Shown here one piece after another: positions 1 through 55,231 of a stretch of DNA of 64,000 bases; position 1 is the stretch's first letter, and the number at the start of each line of letters is the position of its first letter. This stretch comes from Moniliella sp. 'wahieum' (lineage: Eukaryota), in NCBI GenBank assembly GCA_003971905.1, contig RSEE01000087.1, positions 1-64,000 on the forward strand, in the 5' to 3' direction. The notes beneath the pieces were generated by a model, which saw only the letters and a list, made by a program, of their open reading frames with translations, was not told the origin of the DNA and did not search any database. Made by a program: the position numbers and the translations under genes.

Positions 1-2836
1 TCCACGTCGACGTAGTAGACCTCCCCGGGTAACCGGCATGGGGCACGGATACGCCCTCGTCGCCGTTGATGACTTCACGCGGTACGTCTTCACCACAGCG
101 ATCCCGACAAAGGGCGCTGCAACGAAGGAACTGCGGAACCTCATATGCGGGAGCAACGCTACGGCCCGGACAGACTGCTGCGGACTTTGCGCACGGACAA
201 CCCCCGAATTGACAAGCGCACTGCAACCTTTTCTGGACGAGCAAGGCATCACGTCAGAACGGACAATCCCGGGGCAGAGTGCTAGCAACGGTGGGCTGAG
301 CGTGCCATCCGAACCATAACGACTCGTGCAAGGCAGTTGCTCTTGGGTACAGGTCTTCCGACGTCGGACTGGTGGGAACACAGCCTCCACGCTGCGTGCT
401 TCACCCAAAACCAAATGCCACTCAAAACATCCGGGGAAGACAACAAATCGCGATTTGAGCGATACAAAGGCCACGCATACTCGTTACGATGCAACCCTTT
501 GGCCGCGTTGCATACCTCCATCTGCCCGAGTCACGCCGCGAGCACAAGCTCAGCGCGCGGGCAGAGGAAGGTATGCTGGTAGGATACCACCATCAGCGCG
601 GATCAAAGGGATGGCTCTTCGCCACATACCAACCATCCCTGGGTACCTTCACCTACCGCTGGTCGAAACCGTACAAATGGGGCAACGCCATACCCCCATC
701 TCCACCCGACCACTTCCCACCCGACATCTCCAAATCACTCAAATTAAAATCGACAGTGAAAAAGACGCTAACCCTACTCCGCCAGCCGCGGCAGCACCCA
801 TGCCCGAACCGCCGCCACACCCCAGACACCCGCTCCCACCACCCCCTCCCGCCGCTACCCCCTCCGCCAGCGCACCACCCGCACCTCCCTCGACCTGCAC
901 ACACTCCCAATCGCTGACGACCCCACCGACACGACCTACCATGCTCGTGCTGCAGCCGCCACGCCCCACTGCGCCGCACCAGAGATCGGCATCGCCCGCC
1001 CCTACCTGACACATCCGCCCCCCCGTTTGCCGACACAGTTCAACCTCCCGAATACGCCGCCATGACTGCTCTCAGCGCACCCATCCACCCGGACACGGTT
1101 CAGCTCACCAAGGATGGCGTACCCCTCGCTCCCAAGACGCTCAAGGGTCTCGAGACTCACCCCTCCTTTGCCATGGTCAAGCAGGCTATGGCCGACGAGG
1201 TGGCCACACTCGCGCGATACGGCACCTACGAGGCTACGTACCCACCACCGGGTGCACAAATCCTCATAGGACTATGGCGCATCACCACAAAGACGGACGC
1301 CGAGGGCCGGTTCCTGCGCCACGCGCGCGCTTTGTCGCGGGCGGACACCAACAATCGGCCGAGACTTGGGGCCAGACGTTCGCACCATCGGTGCGCACAC
1401 CTGCCATCCTGACCCTCGTCGTGCTGGCCGAGAAGTATAAGTTTGGCCTCTTCTGGCGGACGTCAATGCAGCGTACCTGAACGCCCCCCTCGAAGAAGTC
1501 TACATCCGCCCACCCCCCTACTTCCCCGAAGCGGGTGGTCGCGTGTGGCGTCTCAAGAAGAGTCTATACGGGCTACATCAGAGCGGAGCAAACTGGGCAC
1601 GATACATCCGGAACCTGCTGCGTGACAAGCTCGGCTTCACGCAAAGCTTGACCGAGCCCTGCTTGTTCGTGCGCGCTGCACCACCGGGTGAGCAGATCCT
1701 CCTGGCGGTCCACACCGACGATCTGCTCCTCGCATGCAAGTCACACCAAAAGTACGAGGAGTTTATGGCCGAGATAAACACACACATTGATGTTCGTGGT
1801 AACGGTCCCCTTCACTACCACCTGGGATGCCAATACGATCGGATCGGTGGGGAGCTGTACCTGAGCCAACCAAAGTTCATCGAGGAAGTGGTGGCAAAGC
1901 ACCACATCAAAGCCCCGTGGATCCGGACTCTCCCACATCCCGTACGGATGATACCGCCCCGTGCCGACCCTGAACCCCCATCCCTCCCAGCCTTGCGCAA
2001 GGCATATCAGGGGAAGATCGGATCGGGACTGTGGCTGCACGAATGGGCCGGCCTGACCCTCTTCGCTATCACGGCCCTCAGCAGAGCCGCTGCCGACCAT
2101 CGCAGCAGCATCATCAAGCAGTCGATGACTTCCTTCGCTACCTGTACCATACTCGAGGAAAGGGCCTGAGGTTGACCCCAACATCAGATGCACCGGCCAT
2201 TGCGCGTATACAGATTCCGACTTGGCGGGAGATCCCATCCAGGCACGCTCCACATCTGGATGCCTACTGATGGTGTACGGTGTGCCGGTGTCGTGGCGAT
2301 CCATTCTTCAGCCGAAGAGCGTTACCAGTACCGCCGCCGCCGAATATACGGCAGGATATGATGGACTGGTTGACGCCAACTATGTCAAGAACATCATGAT
2401 CGAGCTTGGGGCCATCGGCGAGGGTACACCCATTCATTGGTATTGCGACAATAAGTCTGTCGTCGATCTCGCCCACAAATTTGGCAGCACCGGCAAGCTC
2501 CGAGAGCTGAAGATCCGGTACCACAATGTACGGCAACACGTGGACTCGGGCGAGGCCATACTTGTACACATCCCCGGCGAAAGGAACCCAGCGGACGTCC
2601 TCACCAAGCCTCTCGGCCGTCCCGCCTGACAAGCCATTGCTCAACTCCGCGTCGAGGAGATGGATCCAGTCCACATGACTGGGCCCTCCGGTCAGCGGGG
2701 GTGTTGACATCCGTCCTAGGACCGCGCGGACCCTGAGTCACGTGAGTCAGCTTTCATTCCTTCCGAGCTCGCACCAGTCTTCTGGACGAGTCAGTCGCAG
2801 AAGCTTCTTAGTCAAATACGACGTTCAGTGCTCACA
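1..2836 (+). mobile_element. Ty1/copia LTR retrotransposon, 3' portion (integrase-RT-RNase H, PPT, 3' LTR); runs off the window at the 5' end
   Basis: Domain order INT-RT-RH is diagnostic of copia. Integrase: HVDVVD, VDDFTRYVFT, SNG..ERAIRT, PFGRVAY..KLSARAEEGMLVGY. RT: WRLKKSLYGLHQSG, EPCLF, VHTDDLL. RNase H: STSG..VSWRS..Q..VTSTAAAEY, CDNKS, NPADVLTKPL. Polypurine tract ends at 2701 and is followed by TG. Many frameshifts. Confidence 0.95.
2702..2836 (+). repeat. Putative 3' LTR of the copia element (TGTTGA...CTCACA, ~135 bp)
   Basis: Starts with TG immediately after AGCGGGGG (PPT). The pol frame ends ...QRGC* overlapping the LTR start. The CA end at 2836 is inferred because no second LTR is in the window. 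Confidence 0.6.
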
Positions 2837-2858
2837 TTTGTGGTAGTAGCGAGGCCGA

Positions 2859-3320
2859 CCCGAAGGGGAGAGAGTTATGCCGAGGCGATAGCTCGCTAAA
2901 ATCGTCCGCTCTATGCAGCATATGGCCTCCGTTCTCGATTGGACGCACCGTTGACAAGTTACACCCCCCATCCCTAACCCTACCCAACCCGACCCAACCC
3001 AACCCACCCTAACCCTAGAGGGGGAGGGGCCGAGGGTAGATAGCTCGCTACCGAAGGGGAGAGAGTTATGCCGAGGCGATAGCTCGCTACCGAAGGGGAG
3101 AGAGTTATGCCGAGGCGATAGCTCGCTACCCGAAGGGGAGAGAGTTATGCCGAGGCGATAGCTCGCTACCCGAAGGGGAGAGAGTTATGCCGAGGCGATA
3201 GCTCGCTAGGAAATCGTCCGCTCTATGCAGCATATGGCCTCCGTTTTTCGATTGGGCCAACCGTTGAGAAGTTACACCCACCCATCCCTAACCCTACCCA
3301 ACCCAACCCACCCCACCCAC
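2859..3320. repeat. Composite repeat block: 39-40-bp tandem unit plus degenerate telomere-like C-rich tracts, with a ~150-bp duplicated block
   Basis: Unit (C)CCGAAGGGGAGAGAGTTATGCCGAGGCGATAGCTCGCTA occurs at 2859-2898, 3051-3089, 3090-3128, 3129-3168 and 3169-3208, with a degenerate copy at ~3014-3050. CCCTAACCCTACCCAACCC... tracts lie at ~2972-3017 and ~3286-3320. Block 2859-3010 is repeated at 3169-3320. Confidence 0.95.
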
Positions 3321-3514: not shown

Positions 3515-6500
3515 CTATGTTCCTATACATGCTTGGTGTTGAAGACAGGGAGCAGAGGCGTGGAGATGGGGAGCACAGGCTTGGGGATGGCGAGCACAGG
3601 CTTGGTAACGAGGATGCCCAGGTGGGTTGTGCCAAGCCGTTGGCCGAGGCGCAGGCAGCGGTGTACGTACAGGCACTGTACTTGGCCCGGCGTGTGCGGG
3701 CTGAGGCAGGATCCCTTCTGTCACATGGTCCCACACCTCCACTGGGATTGGGTCCAGCTGCGCCTCCAAGCTGTCATACGAGCTCCCCCTTAAGGACCGC
3801 GCAGGCGCCAAGGTTCGGACCCGCTTGTGGACCACTGCCTCCAGTGTAGGGTCGGGTCGGCGCTTGCTGCCCGACGCAGCTGCACCCGCGGGCAAGATGG
3901 GGTTGAGTTGCGTCCTTTGCCCGACGTCGGGAGCCGGCATGGTGGGACGGACGCTTGGTACGTTGTCCTCGTGCGTGCCGTGTGCGCCATCGGCTTGTTG
4001 CTGACCATCTTCATCTCCAGATGCTTCGTCTTGTTCGGTTTGGCGAGCGAGGGCAACGCCAACATGGTGTGCATTCTGATCATTCTCAGCTGGATGCCGT
4101 TCCTCGAAGAACCCGGCATCCGCTAAGACCCTTGCTCTGAGCTCCAAGCGCCTTGCTCTGCGCTCCTCGTCAATCTGCATCCAACGCGGAGATGGTGGAC
4201 GGCGTGTTGGATTCCGATCCGGCACGTGGGCCTCCTGCCATGTTGGAACGACCGGCTGGTCATCCACTCCCTGTTGTTCCGGGTGCCACCGCGGCGAGAG
4301 AGCGTGGCGATGGGTCACAGGCTCCTCGGTGGGCTGACGACGAGGCGGGCTGCTGATTTCCAAAGCTGGCAAGTCATCGGCTGCGCCTGGCCCATACAGG
4401 GGCGCGTCGTGCGGGAGCCAGGGTGGAGACTGCTCGTCGCGCTGCCTGGTCGCTGCTGCTGGCTCCATGCGCGGGGGAAGAAGAATGGGTGGCAGCTCGG
4501 CACGCGGGGGGCGCAGCATGGGCCTCGTCGCTCGCATGCTGTACACTTGCGGGCTCCCTCCACGTCCTGGCACCGCAGCGGCACGCCATACAGGCAAGTG
4601 TGTACTGCTTCAAAGAGGCAGTCCTTGTGTTGGAGCCAGTGGGCCACGTTGCCCATGTACGCCTTGGCATCGGACACGTGCCGAGTGAGAGCATCGCGCA
4701 CATCTTGCTGCGAGGCAAGAATGATCATGTCGCCCTGCTCGTTGGGCCCACGAGCAGCACGGCCGGCTGCCTGGATCAAGTCCAGCCCGGTAAATGGCAC
4801 GCCGAGCCAGATGACCATGTCACAGTCGGGAACATCAATCGACACGGAAAGCGAAGTGGTGCCAACCAGCACAACCTCCTCGCCCTGGATGAACTTGGCC
4901 AGCTGATCTGCGCCTTCCTCGCCCTCGGTTTCCCGCCTGTTGTAACCCTCACTGATGGCCGGACGGGGGGGAAGGTAGTGCTGAGAGGAAGAATGCAACC
5001 AAGAGTCAGTCAGCAAAGCGGGGCGTGACCACAGGCGGGGAACCAGGAATGGGATCGACGTACCGGGACGTGGAGAGCGGCGGCGGCAACATCGCGCGCG
5101 GCTTGGCGGCTGTTGCAAATGACGATCGCCCTATGAGGCCGATCTTGGGGCGCTGGTGTGCGAAGCCAGGCCTGGCGTTCGGCCAGCCGCGCCGCCAGCA
5201 GCTCTTCAAGCTCTTGCTGTAACCTCTTGGGCCTGGTATGGGAGCCTCGTGGAATACATACCGCACCTCGGGACGCGCGATTGGTTCGTTAAAGTGGGAA
5301 AAGCGCACGTTGCGAATGCCAGGGAGCGACAATGTCGTTTCCAACTCTCGCACCACCCCCACCGGCGCTGTTCCCGATAGGCCGACGAAGCGAGTATGGC
5401 GCAAGATGGGCGCAAGATAGCTGAGGTTTTTGAATTCAGTTCGGAAGTTGCCATGCAGCGCGATGAGATGCGCCTCGTCCACCACGATCCTTTCCAGTCG
5501 GCCCTCGAGTGCCAGCGCGCGAAGACAGTCGGCCAAGCCCTTTTGCGCCAGCTGACTGACCGTTACGAGCAGGACACGCGTGCCGGCCTGGAGCGGGTTG
5601 GCTTCGGGCGCGCCGCCGTGCCATGTCTGGAAGGGAAGGTCGTGCCGCCGCAAGCGGTTCTCAAAGTCGACCACCATGCTGTGCAGCGGCACGGCCACCA
5701 CATGCACTTTGGAGGGAGCTGCCGTCAGTGCTGGCACGAGCCACATCGCCGTCTTGCCCGCCCCGGTTGGTAGAGCAATCATCGATGCCGATCCAGGCTG
5801 GTCTAGCAACAGTCGTTCGAGGCAGAAGCGTTGCTCTTGGCGCAAGCCATAGTCGCCATAGATGCGTACGCCCACCTGATGCGCCATCGCCAGCCGGTCA
5901 TTTATGCTGGGCTCGGTGCGGATGACCGCGTTGGGTTGGCTCGGCTTGGCGTGCTCGGGAAAGTGGAGCTTGAGAATCTCCGTTTGCCAGTCGCGACTGA
6001 CAAAGCGGGACTTGATGATGCTGTCGGCCCCCAAATGGCCAATCTCTTCCGAGTTGATGCCATACGTCAGGGACGCCGTGTTGGCCGAGTGGCCTGCCTG
6101 CCCCGACTGGCTCGCCCACAGGATCTGCCGCTGCAGCGAACGGAGAGCAAACGCCGTGTTTTCGGCGTCGAGCGTCCCCTGGCGCAGCTCGTTGCCGGGG
6201 AGTAGTGCCGCATCGCGCTGCCGCTTCGACAAGGCCGCACAGTAGTGCCGCCAGACCATCAGGTTGAGCGGGGCGACGCAGCCTTGTCAGGCCAGGTAGC
6301 GCGCAGCACATTGCCCAGCCGGGTCGTCGTAAGTGGCTGCGAGCGCCGGTTGACAAACAGAAGCGGCTGACTTTTCGGCACTGTCGGCTCTCCATTCTCG
6401 TTACGCGGACCTGTTAGCCAGCGCAGGCGGTCGGTGAAGGGGCGAACGAGCAAGAGGTATGCTTTGAGCACCTTGCTGGTGATCGGATCCGGGAAGCGGG

Positions 6501-9500
6501 CAGCACGGAACGCAGCGTCGGGGCTGCTGTGCAGGGCTGTCTTGCTGCGGCGGAAGACGAGAAAGACCTCGTTGTCAGTGCCGGCGACATAGATGCCACG
6601 CGGCCCGGTCGTCTCATTGAAGCAGCGCAGCGACAAGGTCTCCACGCCGCGGGCAGACAGGCCACTGACGCAATGGATCGAGAGTGCCAGGTGGAGCAAG
6701 AACTTCTCCTCGAGGCGGAGGATCTGTTTGTGGAGATGCTCCTCCTCGGCGTCGGACTGCATGTCCTCATCTTCCCAGATGCGGTCCGCAACATGGCCGA
6801 GACCGAGTTCGTCCCTCCACAGCTTTGCGTGCGACTCGGCCTCCCAGACAAAGGAGTAATACTCAGCGGGGTTGTTGAGTCGGTCGCGCAGGTGGGTTTT
6901 GTCAAAGGGATGGCGGAGGTAGTGGTCCTGGTAGCGGGCGCGGCGGCCGATGGTAAACAGATCCAAAAAGGCATTGTCGAGGTTGATTAGAACTGTGCTG
7001 GCAAAAACACGCAGGTGCTCGTCGGAAAGGCAGGTGCCACTGGGCAGCACAATCTCATGGTCGTTCGGTACAAATGGCGAGTCGGGGCCGCCCACCGCTG
7101 CACGGGCCCGGCTGCAGTAGCGCAACACATTGCCCAGCCGGTCCGCCACACGCATGGTGCCCACCACCAGGTGCTCCTTCTCGTACGCACGCACAAACGC
7201 ACCCGCCTCGTCTGCCTTCGCTGCCCAGTCGAGCGTCCCATCCGAGCGCAGCGCCTCGGCATCGTTCAGCAGCGCCGCCGTGCAGCGACGCGACCATCGA
7301 CAGACGCAGGTTCCACATCAGCCCCGCCATCGCCGGCGACACTTGGTTCGGCGCACGAAACAGCAGGTGGCCCACCGTGCCTGCCCCACCCTCCCCGGGC
7401 GTCGGAGCTGCTCTGGGCCCTCCCACCTCCTCCTCCTCCTCCTCCTCCTCCTCTCCCTCCCCCTCCCCCTCCAGGCGATCGTCATCATTCGGCTGCTGGA
7501 GAATGTTGCCCACGATGGCGTGCCTAGTAACAGTGGGCGGACGCACCTGTTGCGGCTCATCTGCCTCGGGCGGGTACCAGATGCCGAGACACTGGCTAAA
7601 GGCAAACAGCCACAGCGGGCCTACATCCTCCAGGGTCGCTGCCCAAGGCCGTGTCGTGGTCATCTCGAGCCAGATCGCAAGGCGCTGCCAAAGCGGGTCG
7701 TAGTCAAGCTGCTGCGCTCCCGGATTGTCAACCGGGGGGTCCCAGGGGTTCGGCGCAAGGACATCGGCGACAAAGCTTTCCAGGGCACTCTCGCCCACTG
7801 GCATGCCGTCATCCTCCAGCGCCTGGATGAAGGCCTGCTCGTGCATCGACAAGACGCGACTGGCCAGGTCGGCCAGCGGGTGCTCCTCTGTGCCCCAGCG
7901 TCGCCCGCGCTCCGAGGAGCAACTGCATAAAGACAAAGCAGTCGCCTAACAAGCCGGTGTACTTGCGGATCGTGTCGGTACGGACCTGCAAGCCAAAGCG
8001 ATGGAAGCACGAGAACTCGGACTCTTGCCCGGCTAGCAATGGCGTGCTGGACGGGGTGGGAAAAGGCGAGAAGCGCCTGGGCCCATTGCAAGAGATTTTC
8101 ATTGGCACGCTTGCGTTCGTGGTTCATGTTTGGCAGATACCGCATCTCGGCCAAGCGCATCAGCGGTACCCCAGCCATCAACTCGGACACATGCCACATG
8201 CGAGGGAAGGAGCCCATGAAATGCTCGCCATCTGCAACGGTCAGCGGATCCTCCCCGGGTATGTGAGGCATCAAGCTGGGCGAGCCCTCCTCCCGCGTAA
8301 GGTCGGTATACGTCAGCAGAGGCCGCCGTGGCGGAGAGGCATCGCGCAGGGGACGGGGATGAGGACGATCGGGCGGCGCCGCGGCTGGTGGAGAGGCGTT
8401 GCGCTGCCGCCGCGGGGGGGCAGGCGAGGGCGAGGGAGACTGCGTCGGCCGGCCTGCCTCGGTCGACTCTGCCTCGCTAGGGGATGCTTCCTGGGTGCGT
8501 GCTGGTCGCCGAGTGCGCGCTGGTACCCAGTCCCATTCCGATTCGGAGTCGCTGGCCTCATCCACGTCTCTCCGCTCGGTGTCGCTGGTATCCTCGTCAC
8601 TCTCGGGATCTGTTGCTCGTTGTATCGTCATCCGTTCCTCGGTTGCGCACCGGGCTGGTGGAGGGGGCGACTGGACAGCTGCGGCTGCATCAAGGCGCCT
8701 CGCAGCATCGATCGCGGCTGGTGGCGCATCGGGCCCAACAATGGCAACGGTAAGGTCGTACAAGACTCGTTGGGTGGGAAGCCAGAGCGGACGAGGGTGG
8801 TGGCCGGTAGTGCGGGCGTGCTTGCGTGCGGGTGGTGGTTGCGAGCCACCTGCAAGCATGTGCGGCACACCTCTTTGGGAGGGGAGATGGGGATGCGATC
8901 GACTGGCTCGGTGAGGTACTTGGCAAAGTGCTTGGCTACAGCAGGGCCTGGGTACAGCGCAGGGGGCAGCATGCGGAGTGCAGTACGGGCAGACTCGACG
9001 TGGTCGTCGAGGAACAAGGGATGCGTACCGGAGTGGTCGAAGGCTTTGACTCTTGCAGTGGAAAGATGCGTGTCGGGCACAAAGTATTTGCATTCAGAGC
9101 AATACAAAAGGCGCAAGTCGGAATTGTACTCGATGCCGATCGGATGGAGGGAGCGGCGGATGAGATGGAAGGGGTCTTGAAAGATGGAGGCGGCGACCTG
9201 ACCTTTGAGTTGAAGACATTCCTTGCGTGCTGCGTGCGGTGCGGGCATTTTGCGGAAGGGAGGCAGAACAAGCAGAGCACGAATAGCCTGGTACGTTGTG
9301 GTCAGCACTGGCTGGAAGGGAGGATGGGGGGGACATACCATCGTCGTTCGCTTGGATGCACACCTGCTGCGGCGGCAGTCGGACGAGATGGTGATTTTGG
9401 TGGTGATGACAGACGTGCGCGGCTGGGGAGGAGGCAATGGCGAAGGGGACAAGCCGAGCGGCGAGGTAGGTGCAGCAACAGGGGGAGGTGATGCTGGTGG

Positions 9501-9885
9501 GGATCGGGTGACGGTGCGGTGCCCGGCTGTTGCACAGGATCTTGTGTGCCCTCGGCGCGCGTGTCTCGCGTGGTTGCTGCAAGTGCTAGGAGATCTGGAG
9601 AGGCGTCGGGTTGGGAGGCGGAGTGGGGCTCGTGTCGGTGCCCGGGCTAGGAGAGGCTGGCATGGTTGACAGCTGGGAGCGAGCGGCATTGTGAGCAGCT
9701 GGGCGGTCCATGCGGCGAGGCAACGGCGTGTCGGATGCTGCTCGCGCTGGAGGTGGTGCACCCGACGGGTCGGTCGAAGGTGTGAAGGCACGAGGTTGGC
9801 TGCCAGGCCTGGCCGTGCTGGGATGAGACGAAGCAGGTGTTCCGCAGTCAAACGTGGCAGCTGGCGTCGTAGGCAAGGCAGGCAT
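3515..9885 (-). CDS. Large (~2000 aa) telomere-linked-helicase-type protein: DUF3505/OrsD-like Zn domain + tyrosine-recombinase-like domain + RecQ-family DEAH helicase; split by frameshifts
   Basis: Consecutive minus-strand ORFs (9586-10158, 8628-10442, 7660-9093, 7809-8108, 7055-7936, 6259-7194, 5006-6259, 4315-5118, 3515-4597) join into one protein. Helicase motifs: LPTGAGKT, VAVPLHSM, IVVDEAH, GLSGTAP, RPEVRY, GTTSLSVSIDVPD, QAAGRAAR, then C..C..CxxC. N-terminal part: YNSDLRLLYCSECKYFV..H ... PISPPKEVCRTC..HHPH. Middle: SGLSARGVE, RSKT, VWRH, QAGHSANTASLTY. A 51-nt intron lies at 9288-9338. Start and end are approximate. Confidence 0.85.
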
Positions 9886-10657
9886 GGTAAGGCGAGGATG
9901 GTGTGATGTGAGGAGGAGGGGGCGCGTCGGGAGGCGTGGGAAAAGGAGGAAGGAAATGAAAGAATGCATGCAGCGCGTCGCGTTGGGGGGACAATTATTA
10001 CGCTGCCGCCGTGCGGGCACATGCATCGATACTTGATGCGCGTTAGCGCGAGGCGACGCGACTTGGCGACGCGTTGAGCCATGCGCGCCGCACCAAAATG
10101 GACGTATCTCGGCCGTTTCTCGACCGATTGGGCTGAAATTTGGCATGCGACTAGCCATGCCATCAGACTACCGATACCAGGTGGTACATCTACCACCACC
10201 ACCCTTGGGCACAAGATACTGCATGCATACGGTACAGACGTCGGACGGCCCAACGAGTGCCTGATATGGACGATGCTCGCCATGAAACGGCCATGCGTGG
10301 TAAGAAAGAGTAGTGGTGGTGGAAGAGGGGGTGGTAGTGGTAGTGGGGGTGGTGGGGGGTGGAAGTGGGAGTGGGAGTGGGGTGGGAGTGGGGGTGGCGA
10401 CGGGGGTTGCGCCTGCAGCGGCGGTGGTGGTGGCGTGCACATGCCAATGGCGGTTGTGTGGCGGTGGCGGTGGCGGTGGCGGTGGCGCGCATACTGAGCA
10501 AGGCTCTGACCGCGGCGGCGGGCTCTGTTGAATTAATGCGTGTGCCACCAACTCTCCTGGGCACTGGTCACTAGTCACTGGTACGCGTCACCGGTCAGGC
10601 CCCGGGGCCCGGTTGTGACTACGTCATAGGTCATCGCTCAGGCTCAACCCGGGTCAC

Positions 10658-10681
10658 TCCAAAATCAATATTGATTTTGGA
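10658..10681. other. Perfect 24-bp AT-rich palindrome TCCAAAATCAATATTGATTTTGGA
   Basis: Read directly; the two 12-bp arms are exact reverse complements with no spacer. Confidence 0.9.
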
Positions 10682-10742
10682 CGTCAGGGGGAGCCGATCA
10701 GTAATTGCCAGCCGGCAATTGATTTCAATAACATATGTCTAG

Positions 10743-11269
10743 GTTTTTACTCTGGCTACGGTAAAGGGGACTGCCAACCTGGCTGATCAGTTTACCAAGC
10801 CTCTCAAATGGTGCCCTCGTGAGGGCCGGGGCCCTTGATCTGGGGCTCCATTGATCTACTTCTTATCTTTGGTTTTGACTTGCGTTTCCGACTCGGTTCC
10901 AGGCGCGTCTCTCGTCTCCGTCTTTTATTTTTTCTACTCGACGCGTCTCCTTTCTTTTGTTTACCGTCTTCTTCCTTTGGTCTCCTTAACCTGTGGCATG
11001 TCCGAGGGGGGGCTGTAGAGTATGGCCTGATCATGCACTCACATGCCATTGCCTTTTGCGGCCAGCCATGTATGCGGAAGTCCCCTCATTGTTTCGCCTC
11101 TCGAGCGCCTCGGGCTGGTTATCCCTTGCGCGCTCCTTCCCTTTCCTTTTCTTCCCTGTTGCACACAAGGTCGGACTAGCGTCAGGAGCTTAGAATAAGC
11201 TCTCTGACTGTTCCTATCTTCCCTTGCACAGTGCAATCGTCCTTAGCTTGGTAGCGTAGCTACTTCTCA
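10743..11269 (+). mobile_element. Second, 5'-truncated Ty1/copia remnant: RNase H C-terminus, PPT and probable LTR (11014-~11269)
   Basis: 10743-10806 translates VFTLATVKGTANLADQFTKPL, the copia RNase H terminal motif NxADxxTKPL. GAGGGGGGGC PPT is followed by TGTAGAG at 11014. The LTR end (..TCTCA, 11269) is tentative. The LTR does not resemble the 2702 LTR. Confidence 0.7.
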
Positions 11270-11980: not shown

Positions 11981-12075
11981 GCCTCTTTGGCTCAGTGGTA
12001 AAGCATCTCACTAGTAGGCTCTGCACCAGTGTCCTGTACATGAGAAGATCGGTCGTTCGATTCGGCCAAGAGGCA
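11981..12075 (+). tRNA. tRNA-Thr(AGU) with a 23-nt intron (12017-12039)
   Basis: Acceptor stem GCCTCTT/AAGAGGC+A; A-box TGGCTCAGTGG; anticodon stem TCTCA/TGAGA with loop CT-AGT-A|intron|A; T arm GGTCG-TTCGATT-CGGCC; downstream TTCTTTT terminator. Confidence 0.95.
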
Positions 12076-12639
12076 TTCTTTTGCAAGTGTGGTGTGGTGT
12101 CGGGTTGTGGGTGTTGTTGGTTTGCGTGCAAGATTCATGGTTCACGCGTCGTCCAGTTCAACGTTCAAGTTCGACGTTCAGGTTCATTCTAATGCCTGTG
12201 TCGGTTATCGATGCTGTGTGGGTGGGTGTGGGAACGGTCACGGATGAGGCAAATGTGCATCAGCTAGGACCGACGTGCCTTAGAGTGGGATGCTCGATGC
12301 CGGGTACACCGGGCCTCGATCGCGTAAGGGGGAGATGAAAGGGGTTCCCATCCGGCAGCTAAGGCCACACCAAACTCAACGCTCGGGTGAGAGGTGAGAT
12401 TGAGAGGTGAGATCTGAGATGAGATCCGTGGGAGGTGGTTACTGATTTGATGATTGTGTTGAAAAGGACAGGATCGAGACGCGATGCGTGGCCCAGCCTG
12501 ACTAGCTGAGTGCTGGGCTATCATGGCCTGCTATGAAAAACAGAACGACGTACTAATAGACACCTCGTATATGCATCGCATTTTTCGCGGTGGCCTGTTG
12601 TGTGTAACACCGAGATATGATCGATGCTGCCGCTCCGGC

Positions 12640-13446
12640 ACGCGTCTCGGAACCGGAAGAAGAGGCTGGAACGGGACACAAGAAAGCAACAGGCAAAGGG
12701 GGAACAAAAACACGCGACACCCGCCCCGCCAAGAAACGCGCCAAGAACCACACCCGAAACACACGACACGAAACACGCCACGAAACACGCCACTCAACAC
12801 GCGACCGCCAACCAGGACGCGACAAGACGCGACGAGACGAGACGCGACGAGACGAACAAAAAAACCAGGCGACGGCGTCCGATCCGATCTAAGATCTAAG
12901 ATCTCGGAGATTGGCCAGTTCGCACTGTCTTCTAAGATCCGAGATCTGAGTGGAGACGAAAAAAAACAATAGGCAGGCTAGATAGCGCAAGCGCAAGCCT
13001 ACCCACAGTATCCACCGGTCCGCCGCAGCGGGGGAGTGGCAGTGGCAGTAGCTAGTAGGGAGGGACGTAAACGCGGTGGATACGCGCGACGCGTGGCGCG
13101 CACACCGATCGCATCCCATCCTATCCCATCGGGGAGCAATGAAGCCGCCCGACTGACTGCGTAAGTGCGCGTAAGTGCTAGTGCCAGAGACGCGTGACTG
13201 ATTCAGCACAGTAATTAAACACGGCGTGCCTGTCCGAATCGCCGCCGCGCCGATCGGATCAGCCGCGCGGCACACTGCCCCCGTGCCTCGCCTAGCGCGT
13301 CGCGTCGCGGCGACGGTGCTGGGACGTCAGTGACTAGTGACCGGTGATGGGCGGCGATGGGGGCGGAGCGGCGGACGCGTCAGTGTGCGGCCGCTGGCGA
13401 CGCGTCGGCTGGGCGGCCGGACGGGGCAGGCAGATAAAAGACGCGT
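12640..13446 (+). promoter_or_regulatory. Cluster of MCB (ACGCGT) and SCB-like (CACGAAA) cell-cycle boxes upstream of RNR2
   Basis: ACGCGT at 12640, 13089, 13190, 13375, 13400 and 13441; CACGAAA at 12767 and 12779. Confidence 0.6.
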
Positions 13447-13545: not shown

Positions 13546-14855
13546 ATGGCCCCTCTGCCCTTGTCCACGACGCTGCCCACCCCGAGTTTGCCACGCTCAA
13601 GATGGCCGATGTGGAGCGTGCCAAGCAGGCGACCAAGTCGGCTCCCATGGGCAGCCACCGCTTGATTCGATTCAGCACGCTTTGTCGGCGACGTCGACTT
13701 GCCCGAGAAGGAGGAAGCGCTGCTCAAGGAAAACCCGCGCCGGTTTGTCTTGTTCCCCATCAAGTTCAATGAGGTACGTTGTTGTCCGCCGGAGGGCATG
13801 GCCTGCGCAGAGTTGATTTGCATGCGCATGCGGATGTGGATGGTGCTTTGCTTTTTTGGGTTGGTTCATGTTGCTTACCTCTACCCCTCTCCCCCGCATG
13901 TTCCGTGTGGCCGATAATACCAGATCTGGCAATTCTACAAGAAAGCCGAAGCGTCTTTTGGACGGCGGAGGAGATGGACTTGTCCAAGGACCTGCACGAC
14001 TGGGACACCAAGCTCAACGACAATGAGCGTCACTTTATTTCGCATGTGCTCGCCTTTTTCGCCGCGTCGGATGGGATTGTGAATGAGAATTGGTGGTGGA
14101 GCGGTTTTCGCAGGAAGTGCAGGCGGCCCGAAGCAAGGTGCTTTTACGGGTTCCAAATCATGATGGAAAACATCCATTCGGAAACCTACTCGTTGCTCAT
14201 TGACACGTACATTCGTGACCCGGCGCAGCGCGAGTACCTGTTTGATGCGATCGAGACCATCCCGGTCGTCAAGCAGAAAGCCGAGTGGGCGATGCGGGGA
14301 TTGCGGATGAACGGTCGTCGTTCTCCGAGCGCTTGGTCGCGTTTGCTGCTGTCGAAGGCATTTTCTTCTCGGGCTCGTTTGCTTCGATTTTCTGGTTGAA
14401 AAAGCGCGGTCTCATGCCCGGCTTGACCTTCTCCAACGAACTCATCACACGTGACGAAGGCTTGCATACCGACTTTGCCTGTTCCTCTTTGGCCATCTGC
14501 GCAAACGCGCCCATCCCGACACGATCAACACCATCATCCGCGAAGCTGTCGCGATCGAACAATCGTTCCTCACGGACGCCTTGCCCGTCGCGCTGATCGG
14601 CATGAACGCCAAGCTCATGTGCCAGTACATTGAGTTTGTCGCGGACCGCCTCCTGGTCGCCTTGGGCAACGACAAGCTGTACCACTCGACCAACCCGTTT
14701 GACTTATGGAGAACATCTCCTTGCAGGGCAAGACGAACTTTTTCGAGAAGAAAGTGGCCGAGTACGCGATTGCCGGCGTCAACCATAACGAAAACGACGA
14801 TGGCGATGGCGTCGTCAAGGACGTTCATGCCTTCACCTTGGACGAGGACTTTTGA
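13546..14855 (+). CDS. RNR2: Ribonucleotide reductase small (R2) subunit; one intron (13774-13923); frameshifted in assembly
   Basis: [128 protein letters not shown]-terminal FTLDEDF*. Confidence 0.97.
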
Positions 14856-52954: not shown

Positions 52955-54794
52955 ATGGCAGCCGTTCCCGCGCCCTCCCTGCCCGCTCTCGTGCCCGTGC
53001 CTGCCGCCGAGCTCAGCCAGACCCGGTACGACATCGTCATTGTCGGTGCCGGTGTGGCTGGGGCGTCGCTAGCGTATGCGCTGGGCCGCAGTGGCCGCAC
53101 AGTTGCCGTCATTGAGCGCGACTGGAGTGAGCCTGACCGGATCGTCGGGGAGCTGCTGCAGCCTGGGGGTGTGCGTGCGCTGGCGTGTCTCGGCCTGCTG
53201 GACACGCTGGAAGGGATCGAGGCTGTGCCTGTGGTAGGCTACCAAGTGTTCAGTGGGGAGCGCAGCGTGGCCATTCCCTACCCTTCTGTCGACGCTTTGG
53301 ACGCTGTGCAGCCCTCGGCGCGCGGGCTGGTCGGGCCCACGGGGAGGCTCGAGGGTCGTGCGTTCCACCACGGCCGCTTTGTGCAGAAGTTGCGCGCGCA
53401 GGCGCGGGCGCAGACCAACGTGACTTGCATCGAGGCCACGGTGCGTGACCTGGAGGAGGAACAGCACAGTGGCCATGTACTGGGAGCGAATGCGGTGCGC
53501 AAGTTGGCTGGGGCCGAGGAAGAGCTGATGATCCGCGGGGCGATTACGATTGTGGCAGATGGGATCTTTAGCAAGTTCCGTTCCTCCTATGGCTCCACGA
53601 TCGCGCCGCAGATCAAGGGACACTTTGTCGGGCTCGAGCTGGAACATGCTCCGCTGCCCAACCCGCACCATGGCCATGTCGTCCTGGGCCCCAGCGGACC
53701 TGTGCTGCTGTACCAAATTGGCGAGGCCAAGCCGCAGCCCGACGGCTCGTTTGGGATCCACACCACTCGTATCCTGATTGACGTTCCTGGGGAGCAACTG
53801 CCCAGTGCGTCCAAAGGCGACCTGCAACGGCACATCCGCACCCAAGTGGCGCCCTACCTGCCTGGTGAGCTGGGGGCTGCACTGCTCAAAGAGCTGGATG
53901 CAACCGAGACGGGCACTAGCCAACGGCGCAGCATGCCCAACTCGTTCCTTCCACCCAGCGTGCAGGGCCAGTCGCGCTACCGCCGTGCTGCATCCTCGTG
54001 GGCGATGCGATGAACATGCGCCATCCGCTTACTGGGGGTGGGATGACGGTTGCGTTTTGGGATGTGGTGCGCTTGACCAACATTCTCAATGCGGGGGGTG
54101 TGGTACCCTGGTCTGGGGCTGAAACAAGAGACCAAGAAGCCACACAAGTTGACGCTGACGCATTGGGATGCGCAGATCCGGCCGGCGCTGCTGCAGTGGC
54201 ACTGGGCGCGGAAGAACGTTGCGAGCTGTGTCAACATTTTGGCCATGGCGCTGTACAGCCTATTTGGAGCGTCGGACGAGAACCTGGGAATTCTACGGGA
54301 AGGCTGCTTCAAGTACTTTGAGCGTGGGGCGTGGTACGTGGATGGCCCGGTACGGTTGTTGTCAGCGACGACGCCTTCGCCCGCGTTACTCTTTTTCCAT
54401 TTTTTCTACGTTGCGCTCTACAGCATCTTTGCGCTCTTCTTCCTTCCGCGGAAGCACGTGGAGCATGGCAAGGTAATTGTGCGGCGTGCCTCGCTGCTCG
54501 AGTACCCGGGGCTGGTCGTGCGCAGTGTACTCGTTCTACACTGCCTGCTCTGTCTTCTTGCCCATCATCCTCACCGAACTCAAGATGAACCGGCCCGACT
54601 TTTCCCACACCCCGCGCAAGGCCGGGGCTGGGTTTGTGCCCAAGGACGCAACGGGGCCGCTGACGTTTTTGAAGTTCATCGTGGTCACCTGCCTCGTGAT
54701 CATCTACTCGGCGTGGTACCTGTTTGACCCGACGCGTCACCCGACGATCTTTGGCGCGCGCAGCGTGAGCAACGGCACGGCCGCCTTGGCCTAG
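52955..54794 (+). CDS. ERG1: Squalene epoxidase (monooxygenase)
   Basis: GAGVAG FAD motif, ERDWSEPDRIVGELLQPGG, GRAFHHGRF, ADGIFSKFR, PVLLYQI, RSMPNSFLP, GDAMNMRHPLTGGGMTVA, NILAMALYSLF, GCFKYF, HFFYVALY; C-terminal TM segments. Confidence 0.97.
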
Positions 54795-55231
54795 GCACGG
54801 GGCACGCGCACGGCCCAGCGTCTGGCCGGAGGGGAGGAGGGGGAGCGGGAGGAGGAGCAGGAGGAGAAGCGGAGGCAGGCGGGGGAGCACGGGAGGTGGT
54901 ACGCAATGGGATCTGCACAGTGACTCGCTAGTCAAGATGTCACGATGAGCAGCTCTAGGTAGGTACCTAGCTGAGCTGTTGAAAGAAAAACAGTAGCAGT
55001 CGGGCTGCTCCAGCCGAATTCCGCTCGGCGCCGGGCGCACCCACCAGGGCGGAATGGACGCCGGCCGGCCGAGGGGTAGGTAGGCAGGCTGGGAGCAGCC
55101 GAGGCAGGTGATTAATTTTTTTTGTCTCGTGTCGCTCTCTCTCTCGAAAGCTGCTTGGGTTGTGTGCTCCTCCTGCGCCCCCCCACCCCAGTACACCACC
55201 ACCCCACCACACCACCCCCCATCACCACAGC

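What the first reader, a model, noticed from the sequence alone, without database searches (positions are those of the whole stretch)
5006..7194. Tyrosine-recombinase catalytic motifs fused to a RecQ helicase: candidate YR-helicase mobile system
Seen: upstream of the RecQ DEAH core the protein shows SGLSARGVE (Arg codon 6649-6651), RSKT (Lys 6541-6543), VWRH (Arg 6248-6250) and QAGHSANTASLTY (His 6089-6091, Tyr 6062-6064). Established: the lambda-integrase/Xer family uses R...K...HxxR...H/W...Y, with the nucleophilic Tyr nine residues after the GH His (XerD GHSDLSTTQIY). The same H+9 spacing is present here, and only the first His of HxxR is replaced (by Met). Inference: proteins usually annotated only as fungal telomere-linked RecQ helicases may be integrase-helicase fusions. 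Such a protein could cut and rejoin DNA through a 3'-phosphotyrosine and unwind or copy it, making this a self-mobilising or self-amplifying element distinct from Cryptons, DIRS and Starship captains. A single frameshift near 6270 separates the two halves.
Basis: partly seen in the sequence, partly recalled or inferred. Interest (0 to 1): 0.92.

Follow-up and report, generated by a model that had tools for sequence, protein, structure and literature searches.

The report
Recombinase hidden in telomere-linked helicase
This fungal gene is built like the 'telomere-linked helicases', and its long-unexplained middle domain has the fold and conserved active-site residues of a DNA-cutting-and-rejoining tyrosine recombinase, which suggests these chromosome-end genes may copy themselves between telomeres.

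The parts
3515..9885 (-). Whole TLH-type gene (C2H2 fingers - helical region - YR domain - RecQ - low-complexity tail); start codon at 9885 and the tail are guesses
   Evidence: three-frame translations; colinearity with P0001 residues 37-1372 over 9224-5061
9033..9101 (-). First Cys2-His2-type finger (C-x2-C-x7-H-x10-H), same spacing in P0001
8800..8867 (-). Second C2H2 finger, split by a frame break near 8820-8830; P0001 has C-x2-C-x12-H-x4-H here
6760..8054 (-). Conserved helical region ahead of the catalytic domain (possible core-binding domain; not established)
   Evidence: aligns to P0001 from residue 417 on; separate fold test inconclusive
5970..6760 (-). Tyrosine-recombinase-fold catalytic domain (the 'TLH domain')
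   Evidence: model of the P0001 equivalent; profile match to XerD-type YRs:
6649..6651 (-). Arg I (= P0001 R843, XerD R148); Glu at +3 (6640-6642)
6541..6543 (-). Lys (= P0001 K879; probably XerD K172, register shifted by a gap in the profile alignment)
6270..6273 (-). Frame break at a C run between the two halves of the YR domain
6248..6259 (-). M-V-W-R: HxxR position, Met in place of His, Arg II (= P0001 R977, XerD R247)
6062..6091 (-). His (6089-6091; XerD H270) and nucleophile Tyr (6062-6064; XerD Y279), spacing 9
4500..5850 (-). RecQ-type SF2 helicase: motif I 5750-5773, DEAH 5468-5479, motif VI 4750-4773, Cys cluster after it; one frame break near 5235-5245
   Evidence: Pfam DEAD E 2.8e-10 and Helicase_C E 9.3e-10; annotated hits of P0001's helicase are RecQ or DEAD/DEAH helicases
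4981..5063 (-). 83-nt intron (GTACGT ... CTGAC ... CAG); the called ORF of P0001 ends at the same place
2858..3320 (+). Repeat block downstream of the gene: 40-bp tandem units (3039-3208, 4.3 copies; one more at 2860-2898) and two ~150-bp units holding worn CCCTAA tracts (2967-3015, 3276-3319); G-rich strand runs away from the gene's 3' end
10658..10681 (.). Perfect 24-bp palindrome ~0.8 kb upstream of the gene, the longest of 3 perfect palindromes of 16 bp or more in the window; link to the unit not tested

Best explanation
The locus is a copy of a TLH-type gene whose product is a tyrosine recombinase fused to a RecQ helicase, and the TLH unit (gene plus flanking repeat blocks) is a selfish, telomere-targeted DNA element. 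SHOWN: architecture, fusion in intact relatives, YR fold, conserved R-E-K-R-H-Y, and a repeat block with telomere-like tracts past the 3' end. FROM ESTABLISHED YR CHEMISTRY (recalled): the Tyr nicks one strand and forms a 3'-phosphotyrosine that a 5'-OH from a partner DNA reseals. INFERRED: the C2H2 fingers and helical region bind sites in the telomere-like/helicase-associated repeats; the YR joins a TLH end (or an excised circle) to the repeat tract of another chromosome end; the RecQ motor unwinds or branch-migrates the joint so that the unit is copied, giving near-identical units and tandem arrays at chromosome ends. The frame breaks in this copy are probably errors of an indel-rich assembly (about 65%), so it may be intact in the cell.
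Confidence: 0.52

Rival explanations
1. Domesticated host enzyme: the YR-RecQ fusion is an active recombinase-helicase kept by the host for telomere rescue (resolving fused or catenated ends, or driving telomerase-independent lengthening); its own amplification is a by-product of subtelomere recombination.
For: TLH genes are induced in telomerase-deficient fission yeast and aid recovery (as summarised in 10.1101/2024.02.27.582403); a U. maydis TLH locus is upregulated in ter1 mutants (PMC10532341). Conserved architecture from fungi to a choanoflagellate. Same fold and residue evidence as the best explanation.
Against: Only 4 of 11 M. oryzae copies are full length and the region is described as not essential; N. 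crassa ends have none (10.1101/2023.02.05.527183); helicase-less relatives keep the whole catalytic set, which fits a family of elements better than one housekeeping enzyme.
Confidence: 0.25
2. Topoisomerase-IB-like swivel: the domain nicks and reseals one strand as a monomer to relieve twist ahead of its own RecQ motor, with no strand exchange between DNAs.
Against: Glu at Arg+3 in 32 of 33 rows and the 'YL...RP' helix align with XerD; for XerH, IntI, Cre and Tn1549 Int the structural alignment starts at model residue 1, ahead of the catalytic domain, while the TopIB alignments start at residues 83-97; the nearest named Atlas clusters are phage integrases, though only at 0.85, a lead. No TopIB profile could be built for a like-for-like sequence test.
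Confidence: 0.12
3. Protelomerase-like enzyme: it cuts a palindromic or fused-telomere junction and seals hairpin ends.
For: TelN shares the non-His HxxR position and H+9 Tyr; telomeric location; a 24-bp perfect palindrome upstream; a ResT/TelK cluster appears at 0.82 in the Atlas list, a lead only.
Against: Profile match to 8 phage protelomerases E 0.45, score 15.2, within shuffles (max 18.5), while the same shallow profile does detect bacterial YRs (E 0.002).
Confidence: 0.04
4. About this copy only: it is a dead remnant (real frameshifts, decayed helicase), whatever the family does.
For: Six or seven frame breaks; three glycine losses in helicase motifs V and VI; internal position between copia remnants; broken TLH paralogues are common.
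Against: No nonsense codon in the 7 matched segments, C runs at 4 of the 6 break windows examined, canonical intron, all five catalytic residues kept, and housekeeping genes in the window show the same damage.
Confidence: 0.35

Closest known systems
Telomere-linked RecQ helicases (TLH) and TLH-containing regions: M. oryzae TLH1, S. pombe tlh1/2, U. maydis UTASa, F. oxysporum TLH
   Same: Two N-terminal C2H2 fingers, a conserved domain directly ahead of a RecQ core, 3' end facing tandem repeats with telomere-like tracts. Relatives carry OrsD/DUF3505 (7 of 30 scanned, 6 over the cut-off).
   Different: The papers give the TLH domain no function; here it is a YR. This copy is not at a contig end. 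No named TLH protein sequence was available, so the link rests on architecture and published motif descriptions.
Xer/Cre/integron/phage-integrase tyrosine recombinases (Pfam PF00589; XerA 4a8e, XerH 5jjv, IntI 2a3v, XerD 1a0p, Cre 1kbu)
   Different: HxxR His replaced; long insertion between Arg II and the His (53 codons against 23 in XerD); fused to fingers and a helicase; not detected by PF00589.
Type IB topoisomerases (3m4a, 2b9s, 2h7f, 1k4s)
   Different: XerD-like sequence profile and Glu at Arg+3; structural match limited to the catalytic part.
Cryptons (CryptonF/S/A, Glomhoppers) and Starship captains (DUF3435)
   Same: Eukaryotic, fungal YR elements without long terminal repeats.
   Different: No DUF3435, DUF3504 or NDC10_II match in 35 members at E<=1; the word 'helicase' does not occur in the main text of PMC3212892, PMC13465315 or PMC11162782; no cargo or terminal direct repeats found here.
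Telomere-inserting nimavirus tyrosine recombinases (PMC10871703)
   Same: Eukaryotic YR with a C2H2 finger associated with insertion into telomere repeats.
   Different: Viral, no RecQ fusion reported in the passages read; no sequence comparison was made.
Yeast Y' elements
   Same: Helicase-coding subtelomeric units in tandem arrays, amplified without telomerase.
   Different: Different helicase (recalled); no YR reported in the passages read; not compared by sequence.

Membership tests
Tyrosine recombinase / topoisomerase IB superfamily | Catalytic-domain fold | tested here: met
Tyrosine recombinase / topoisomerase IB superfamily | Arg, Lys, Arg, His/Trp, Tyr catalytic residues in order and conserved | tested here: met
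   32/33, 33/33, 27/28, 24/25, 23/23; all five in the window; R, R, H, Y in register with XerD R148, R247, H270, Y279.
Classical YR (Xer/Int/Cre) | His of the HxxR motif (R-H-R-Y tetrad) | tested here: not met
   0 of 28 rows have His; Arg 14, Gln 7, Ser 3, Ala 2, Asn 1, Lys 1; Met in the window.
Classical YR (Xer/Int/Cre) | Acidic residue three after the first Arg | tested here: met
   Glu 32, Asp 1 of 33.
Classical YR (Xer/Int/Cre) | N-terminal core-binding (SAM-like) domain | tested here: inconclusive
Classical YR (Xer/Int/Cre) | Site-specific strand exchange through a 3'-phosphotyrosine | not testable with these tools
   Needs biochemistry.
TLH genes | Two N-terminal C2H2 motifs | tested here: met
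   9033-9101 and 8800-8867; the first has spacing slightly outside the published pattern, as in P0001.
TLH genes | Conserved ~250-residue domain directly upstream of a RecQ core | tested here: met
   matched by position and size to the description.
TLH genes | Sequence identity with named TLH proteins | not testable with these tools
TLH genes | Next to a chromosome end, with helicase-associated repeats | tested here: inconclusive
   Repeat block with worn CCCTAA tracts in the expected orientation, but at least 2.8 kb of copia DNA lies beyond it and no genome is held.
Starship captains | DUF3435 YR at the 5' end of a cargo-carrying element | tested here: not met
   No DUF3435 match at E<=1 in 35 members or the window frames; definition.
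Cryptons | YR with GCR1_C (CryptonF) or DUF3504 (CryptonA), short terminal direct repeats | tested here: not met
   No such Pfam match; NDC10_II appears only as an Atlas lead at 0.84; termini could not be defined.
DIRS/Ngaro retrotransposons | Reverse transcriptase and RNase H in the same element as the YR | tested here: not met
   The only RT found in the 11 frames scanned from 1.4-10.5 kb is a copia RVT_2 on the other strand beyond an LTR-like end.
Protelomerases (TelN/TelK/ResT) | ResT-TelK catalytic profile and fold | tested here: inconclusive
   Profile match not above shuffles, on a shallow profile of 8 sequences; not listed in the fold search.
Mobile DNA element | Defined ends, multiple insertions, empty sites or circles | not testable with these tools
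   No genome, runs or related loci.

The most novel reading that the evidence does not exclude
TLH units are an unrecognised class of eukaryotic DNA element, mobilised by their own tyrosine recombinase and copied with their own RecQ helicase, that targets telomere repeats, builds tandem arrays at chromosome ends in fungi and other eukaryotes, and can stand in for telomerase; helicase-less YR relatives are a sister group.
Probability: 0.45. Interest if true: 0.92.

Novelty: new variant of a known kind. Interest (0 to 1): 0.78.

Why it matters
The function of TLH genes and of their 'TLH domain' has been open since these genes were described; the F. oxysporum paper still calls it undetermined. 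Naming the domain as a tyrosine recombinase gives one residue to mutate and turns the question into a direct test. If the unit is self-mobilising, the near-identical subtelomeres of many fungi are the footprint of a telomere-targeted element rather than passive host repeats, and a recombinase-helicase fusion is a new route to telomerase-independent end maintenance and possibly a repeat-targeting integration tool. This window adds a basidiomycete-like copy that may be intact, beside a repeat block of chromosome-end type.

Tried and rejected
Word-index protein searches found nothing new: N-half against 617-2000 aa proteins, 0 hits; alignment A2 searched only 2810-5000 aa proteins because the longest member set the range, 0 hits; alignment A3 returned only its own first member. 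Pfam does not see the YR domain. PDB sequence searches: one integrase (3nkh) at E 0.46 behind three low-complexity hits, and nothing relevant with A3. Foldseek: no hit at E<=0.001, although YRs and TopIB fill most of the top rows. Protelomerase and Ndc10 structures are not listed in the fold search, which does not exclude them. Core-binding-domain model inconclusive. No genome held; no sequencing run was listed, so the frame breaks could not be checked against reads; locus searches with A2 did not run for lack of a conserved stretch; P0001 found no metagenome locus; viral and prokaryote contig collections were not scanned. P0025 had no match in phages. No TopIB gene in 4 records searched, so no TopIB profile. 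Look-ups of earlier findings by sequence and near this place were empty. Rejected: separate YR and helicase genes; programmed frameshift at 6270 (P0001 is continuous and breaks are assembly-wide); H+9 spacing as proof of a recombinase (TelN has it). The Microstromatales telomere paper (PMC13234504) has no 'TLH' or 'recombinase' in its main text; whether this organism belongs there was not tested. Supplements were not read for any paper; supplementary alignments or tables of the TLH, Starship and Crypton papers, and subscription papers (Rehmeyer 2009 on the TLH domain, Repbase reports), could bear on the claim that the link is not in print.
Full report
OBSERVATION. Arg I and Lys lie in the frame 6259-7317; Arg II, His, Tyr and the DEAH helicase lie in the frame 5006-6286; the switch is at a C run near 6270-6273. 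Pfam finds DEAD (E 2.8e-10) and, in a further frame, Helicase_C (E 9.3e-10), but nothing in the YR-like part.

THE GENE IS LARGER AND MORE BROKEN THAN REPORTED. A phmmer search of 1.84 billion representatives with 6262-7200 gave 34 relatives. The best, P0001 (1373 aa, 36% identical, unnamed source), aligns colinearly with the window from 9224 to 5061 in seven segments, that is six frame changes. The order is: two Cys/His fingers (9033-9101, 8800-8867), a linker, a conserved helical region, the YR-like domain, and the RecQ core. P0001's called ORF stops where the window gene has an 83-nt intron (4981-5063). After the intron come helicase motifs V and VI and a Cys cluster, then probably a seventh frame change into a low-complexity tail ending near 3515. 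This is the architecture described for telomere-linked helicases: two C2H2 motifs, a ~250-residue 'TLH domain' and RecQ (10.1101/2024.02.27.582403; parts 1-3 of 4 of the text read). Annotated matches of P0001's helicase among the 20 plasmid rows shown are RecQ or DEAD/DEAH helicases. No named TLH sequence could be fetched, so the TLH label rests on architecture.

ARE THE BREAKS REAL? None of the 7 homology-matched segments holds a stop codon, and 4 of the 6 break windows examined have C runs at the switch. In the same window the ribonucleotide reductase small-subunit gene changes frame 6 times in 0.93 kb and squalene epoxidase at least twice (genes identified by Pfam; frame assignment in part from recalled conserved sequence). 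The TLH gene's rate, about one per 0.7 kb, is no higher. The breaks are therefore probably assembly errors, but no reads were listed to check. Against an intact copy: motifs V and VI lack three glycines that P0021 and P0028 keep.

FUSION. Of 35 relatives, 25 reach the Tyr; 5 carry a helicase in the same called ORF (P0001, P0021, P0028, P0034, P0040; the first four built the helicase profile and also have Pfam DEAD), 13 end within 250 residues (uninformative, probably cut by introns or contig ends), and 7 have longer tails with no helicase. So the fusion is real and recurrent but the YR family is wider than the fusion, and the helicase-less members keep the full catalytic set.

SURROUNDINGS. 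Past the gene's 3' end lies a repeat block (2858-3320): 40-bp tandem units and two ~150-bp units with worn CCCTAA tracts, the G-rich strand pointing away from the gene. M. oryzae TLH genes also point 3' to the telomere across tandem helicase-associated repeats, some with TTAGGG, and have a sharp inner boundary inside a telomere-like repeat (PMC1635262; passages read). Here a copia element lies beyond the block, so this copy is internal or a former end. No second copy is in the window, the flanks share only low-complexity 9-10-mers, and no genome or related locus was available. Unchecked notes of this scan describe a two-layer 140-bp/40-bp block at contig ends of this genome and another TLH-like copy on another piece; these are leads only.

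HOW IT MOST LIKELY WORKS. Shown: fingers, YR fold with five catalytic residues, RecQ, in one protein. From established YR chemistry (recalled): nicking through a 3'-phosphotyrosine and resealing to a partner strand. Inferred (about 0.5): the protein recognises telomere-like repeats flanking its own unit, joins the unit or a circle of it to another chromosome end, and the helicase drives unwinding or branch migration so that the unit is copied. This would explain near-identical TLH regions, in arrays, with telomere repeats on both sides in F. oxysporum. Nimavirus YRs, which also carry a C2H2 finger, go with insertion into telomere repeats (PMC10871703; passages read). Rivals: a domesticated telomere-rescue enzyme (0.25; TLH induction without telomerase), a TopIB-like swivel (0.12), a protelomerase-like enzyme (0.04).

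COMPARISON AND NOVELTY. It works like a Xer/Int-type YR but fails the classical R-H-R-Y test at the first His. It is not a Starship captain, Crypton or DIRS element by Pfam content and architecture. Searches for a printed link found none: 'telomere-linked helicase' + 'tyrosine recombinase', 0 papers; RecQ + tyrosine recombinase + subtelomer + fung, 3 holders, 2 listed, unrelated by title; DUF3505, 6 papers, two checked by term search; tlh1/helicase/recombinase/telomer/AlphaFold, 30 of 99 listed, none with the link by title; Starship + tyrosine recombinase + RecQ, 2 papers, one checked; 'TLH domain' absent from the 15 of 1,788 listed; Crypton searches seen as listings. Other papers were seen as passages only plus one abstract; no supplements were read and subscription journals are not covered. 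The scan itself reached the same reading on other genomes; my reading was recorded before that call, and those notes are not independent evidence.

VERDICT. Observation confirmed; YR fold and fusion about 0.95; catalytically active family about 0.85; self-mobilising telomere-targeted element about 0.5. New variant of known kinds (a new YR family inside a known gene family); interest 0.78, rising to 0.92 if mobility is shown.

Noticed in passing
window 13923-14853 (+) and 52956-54795 (+): The ribonucleotide reductase small-subunit gene changes frame 6 times in 0.93 kb and squalene epoxidase at least twice (frame assignment partly from recalled conserved sequence). The assembly is indel-rich, so 'broken gene' calls in this genome are unreliable.
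   Followed up: yes
window 1-2836 (+): Copia-type retrotransposon 3' half (RVT_2 E 6e-26), purine tract and an LTR-like end at about 2703-2836, followed by a primer-site-like stretch just before the 40-bp repeat (read by eye).
   Followed up: partly
window 10700-11231 (+): Second copia remnant: RNase H C-terminal peptide at about 10760-10810, purine tract and a different LTR-like sequence from about 11013 (by eye). The TLH unit lies between two unlike copia remnants.
   Followed up: partly
window 2858-3320: Two-layer repeat block (~150-bp unit with worn telomere tract plus 40-bp units). Unchecked notes on other pieces of this genome describe the same kind of block at contig ends; sequence identity could not be checked.
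   Followed up: partly
window 10658-10681; also 10562-10580 with 13328-13346: A perfect 24-bp AT-rich palindrome, and a 19-bp inverted pair 2.7 kb apart; role unknown. M. oryzae HAR-D holds a 23-bp imperfect palindrome upstream of TLH.
   Followed up: no
proteins P0008, P0009, P0010, P0011, P0014, P0016, P0029: Relatives with the full YR catalytic set and 268-652 residues after the Tyr but no helicase; three end in an OrsD domain, two in a Cys-rich domain. Possibly a helicase-less sister family of YR elements.
   Followed up: partly
window about 11981-12076 (+): tRNA-like sequence with a probable intron, seen by eye; ARAGORN listed no tRNA in the window.
   Followed up: no
protein P0035 (cluster of P0003): A 76-aa fragment labelled as an Enterococcus faecium protein sits in a cluster whose long member P0040 is TLH-like; probably contamination of that assembly.
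   Followed up: no
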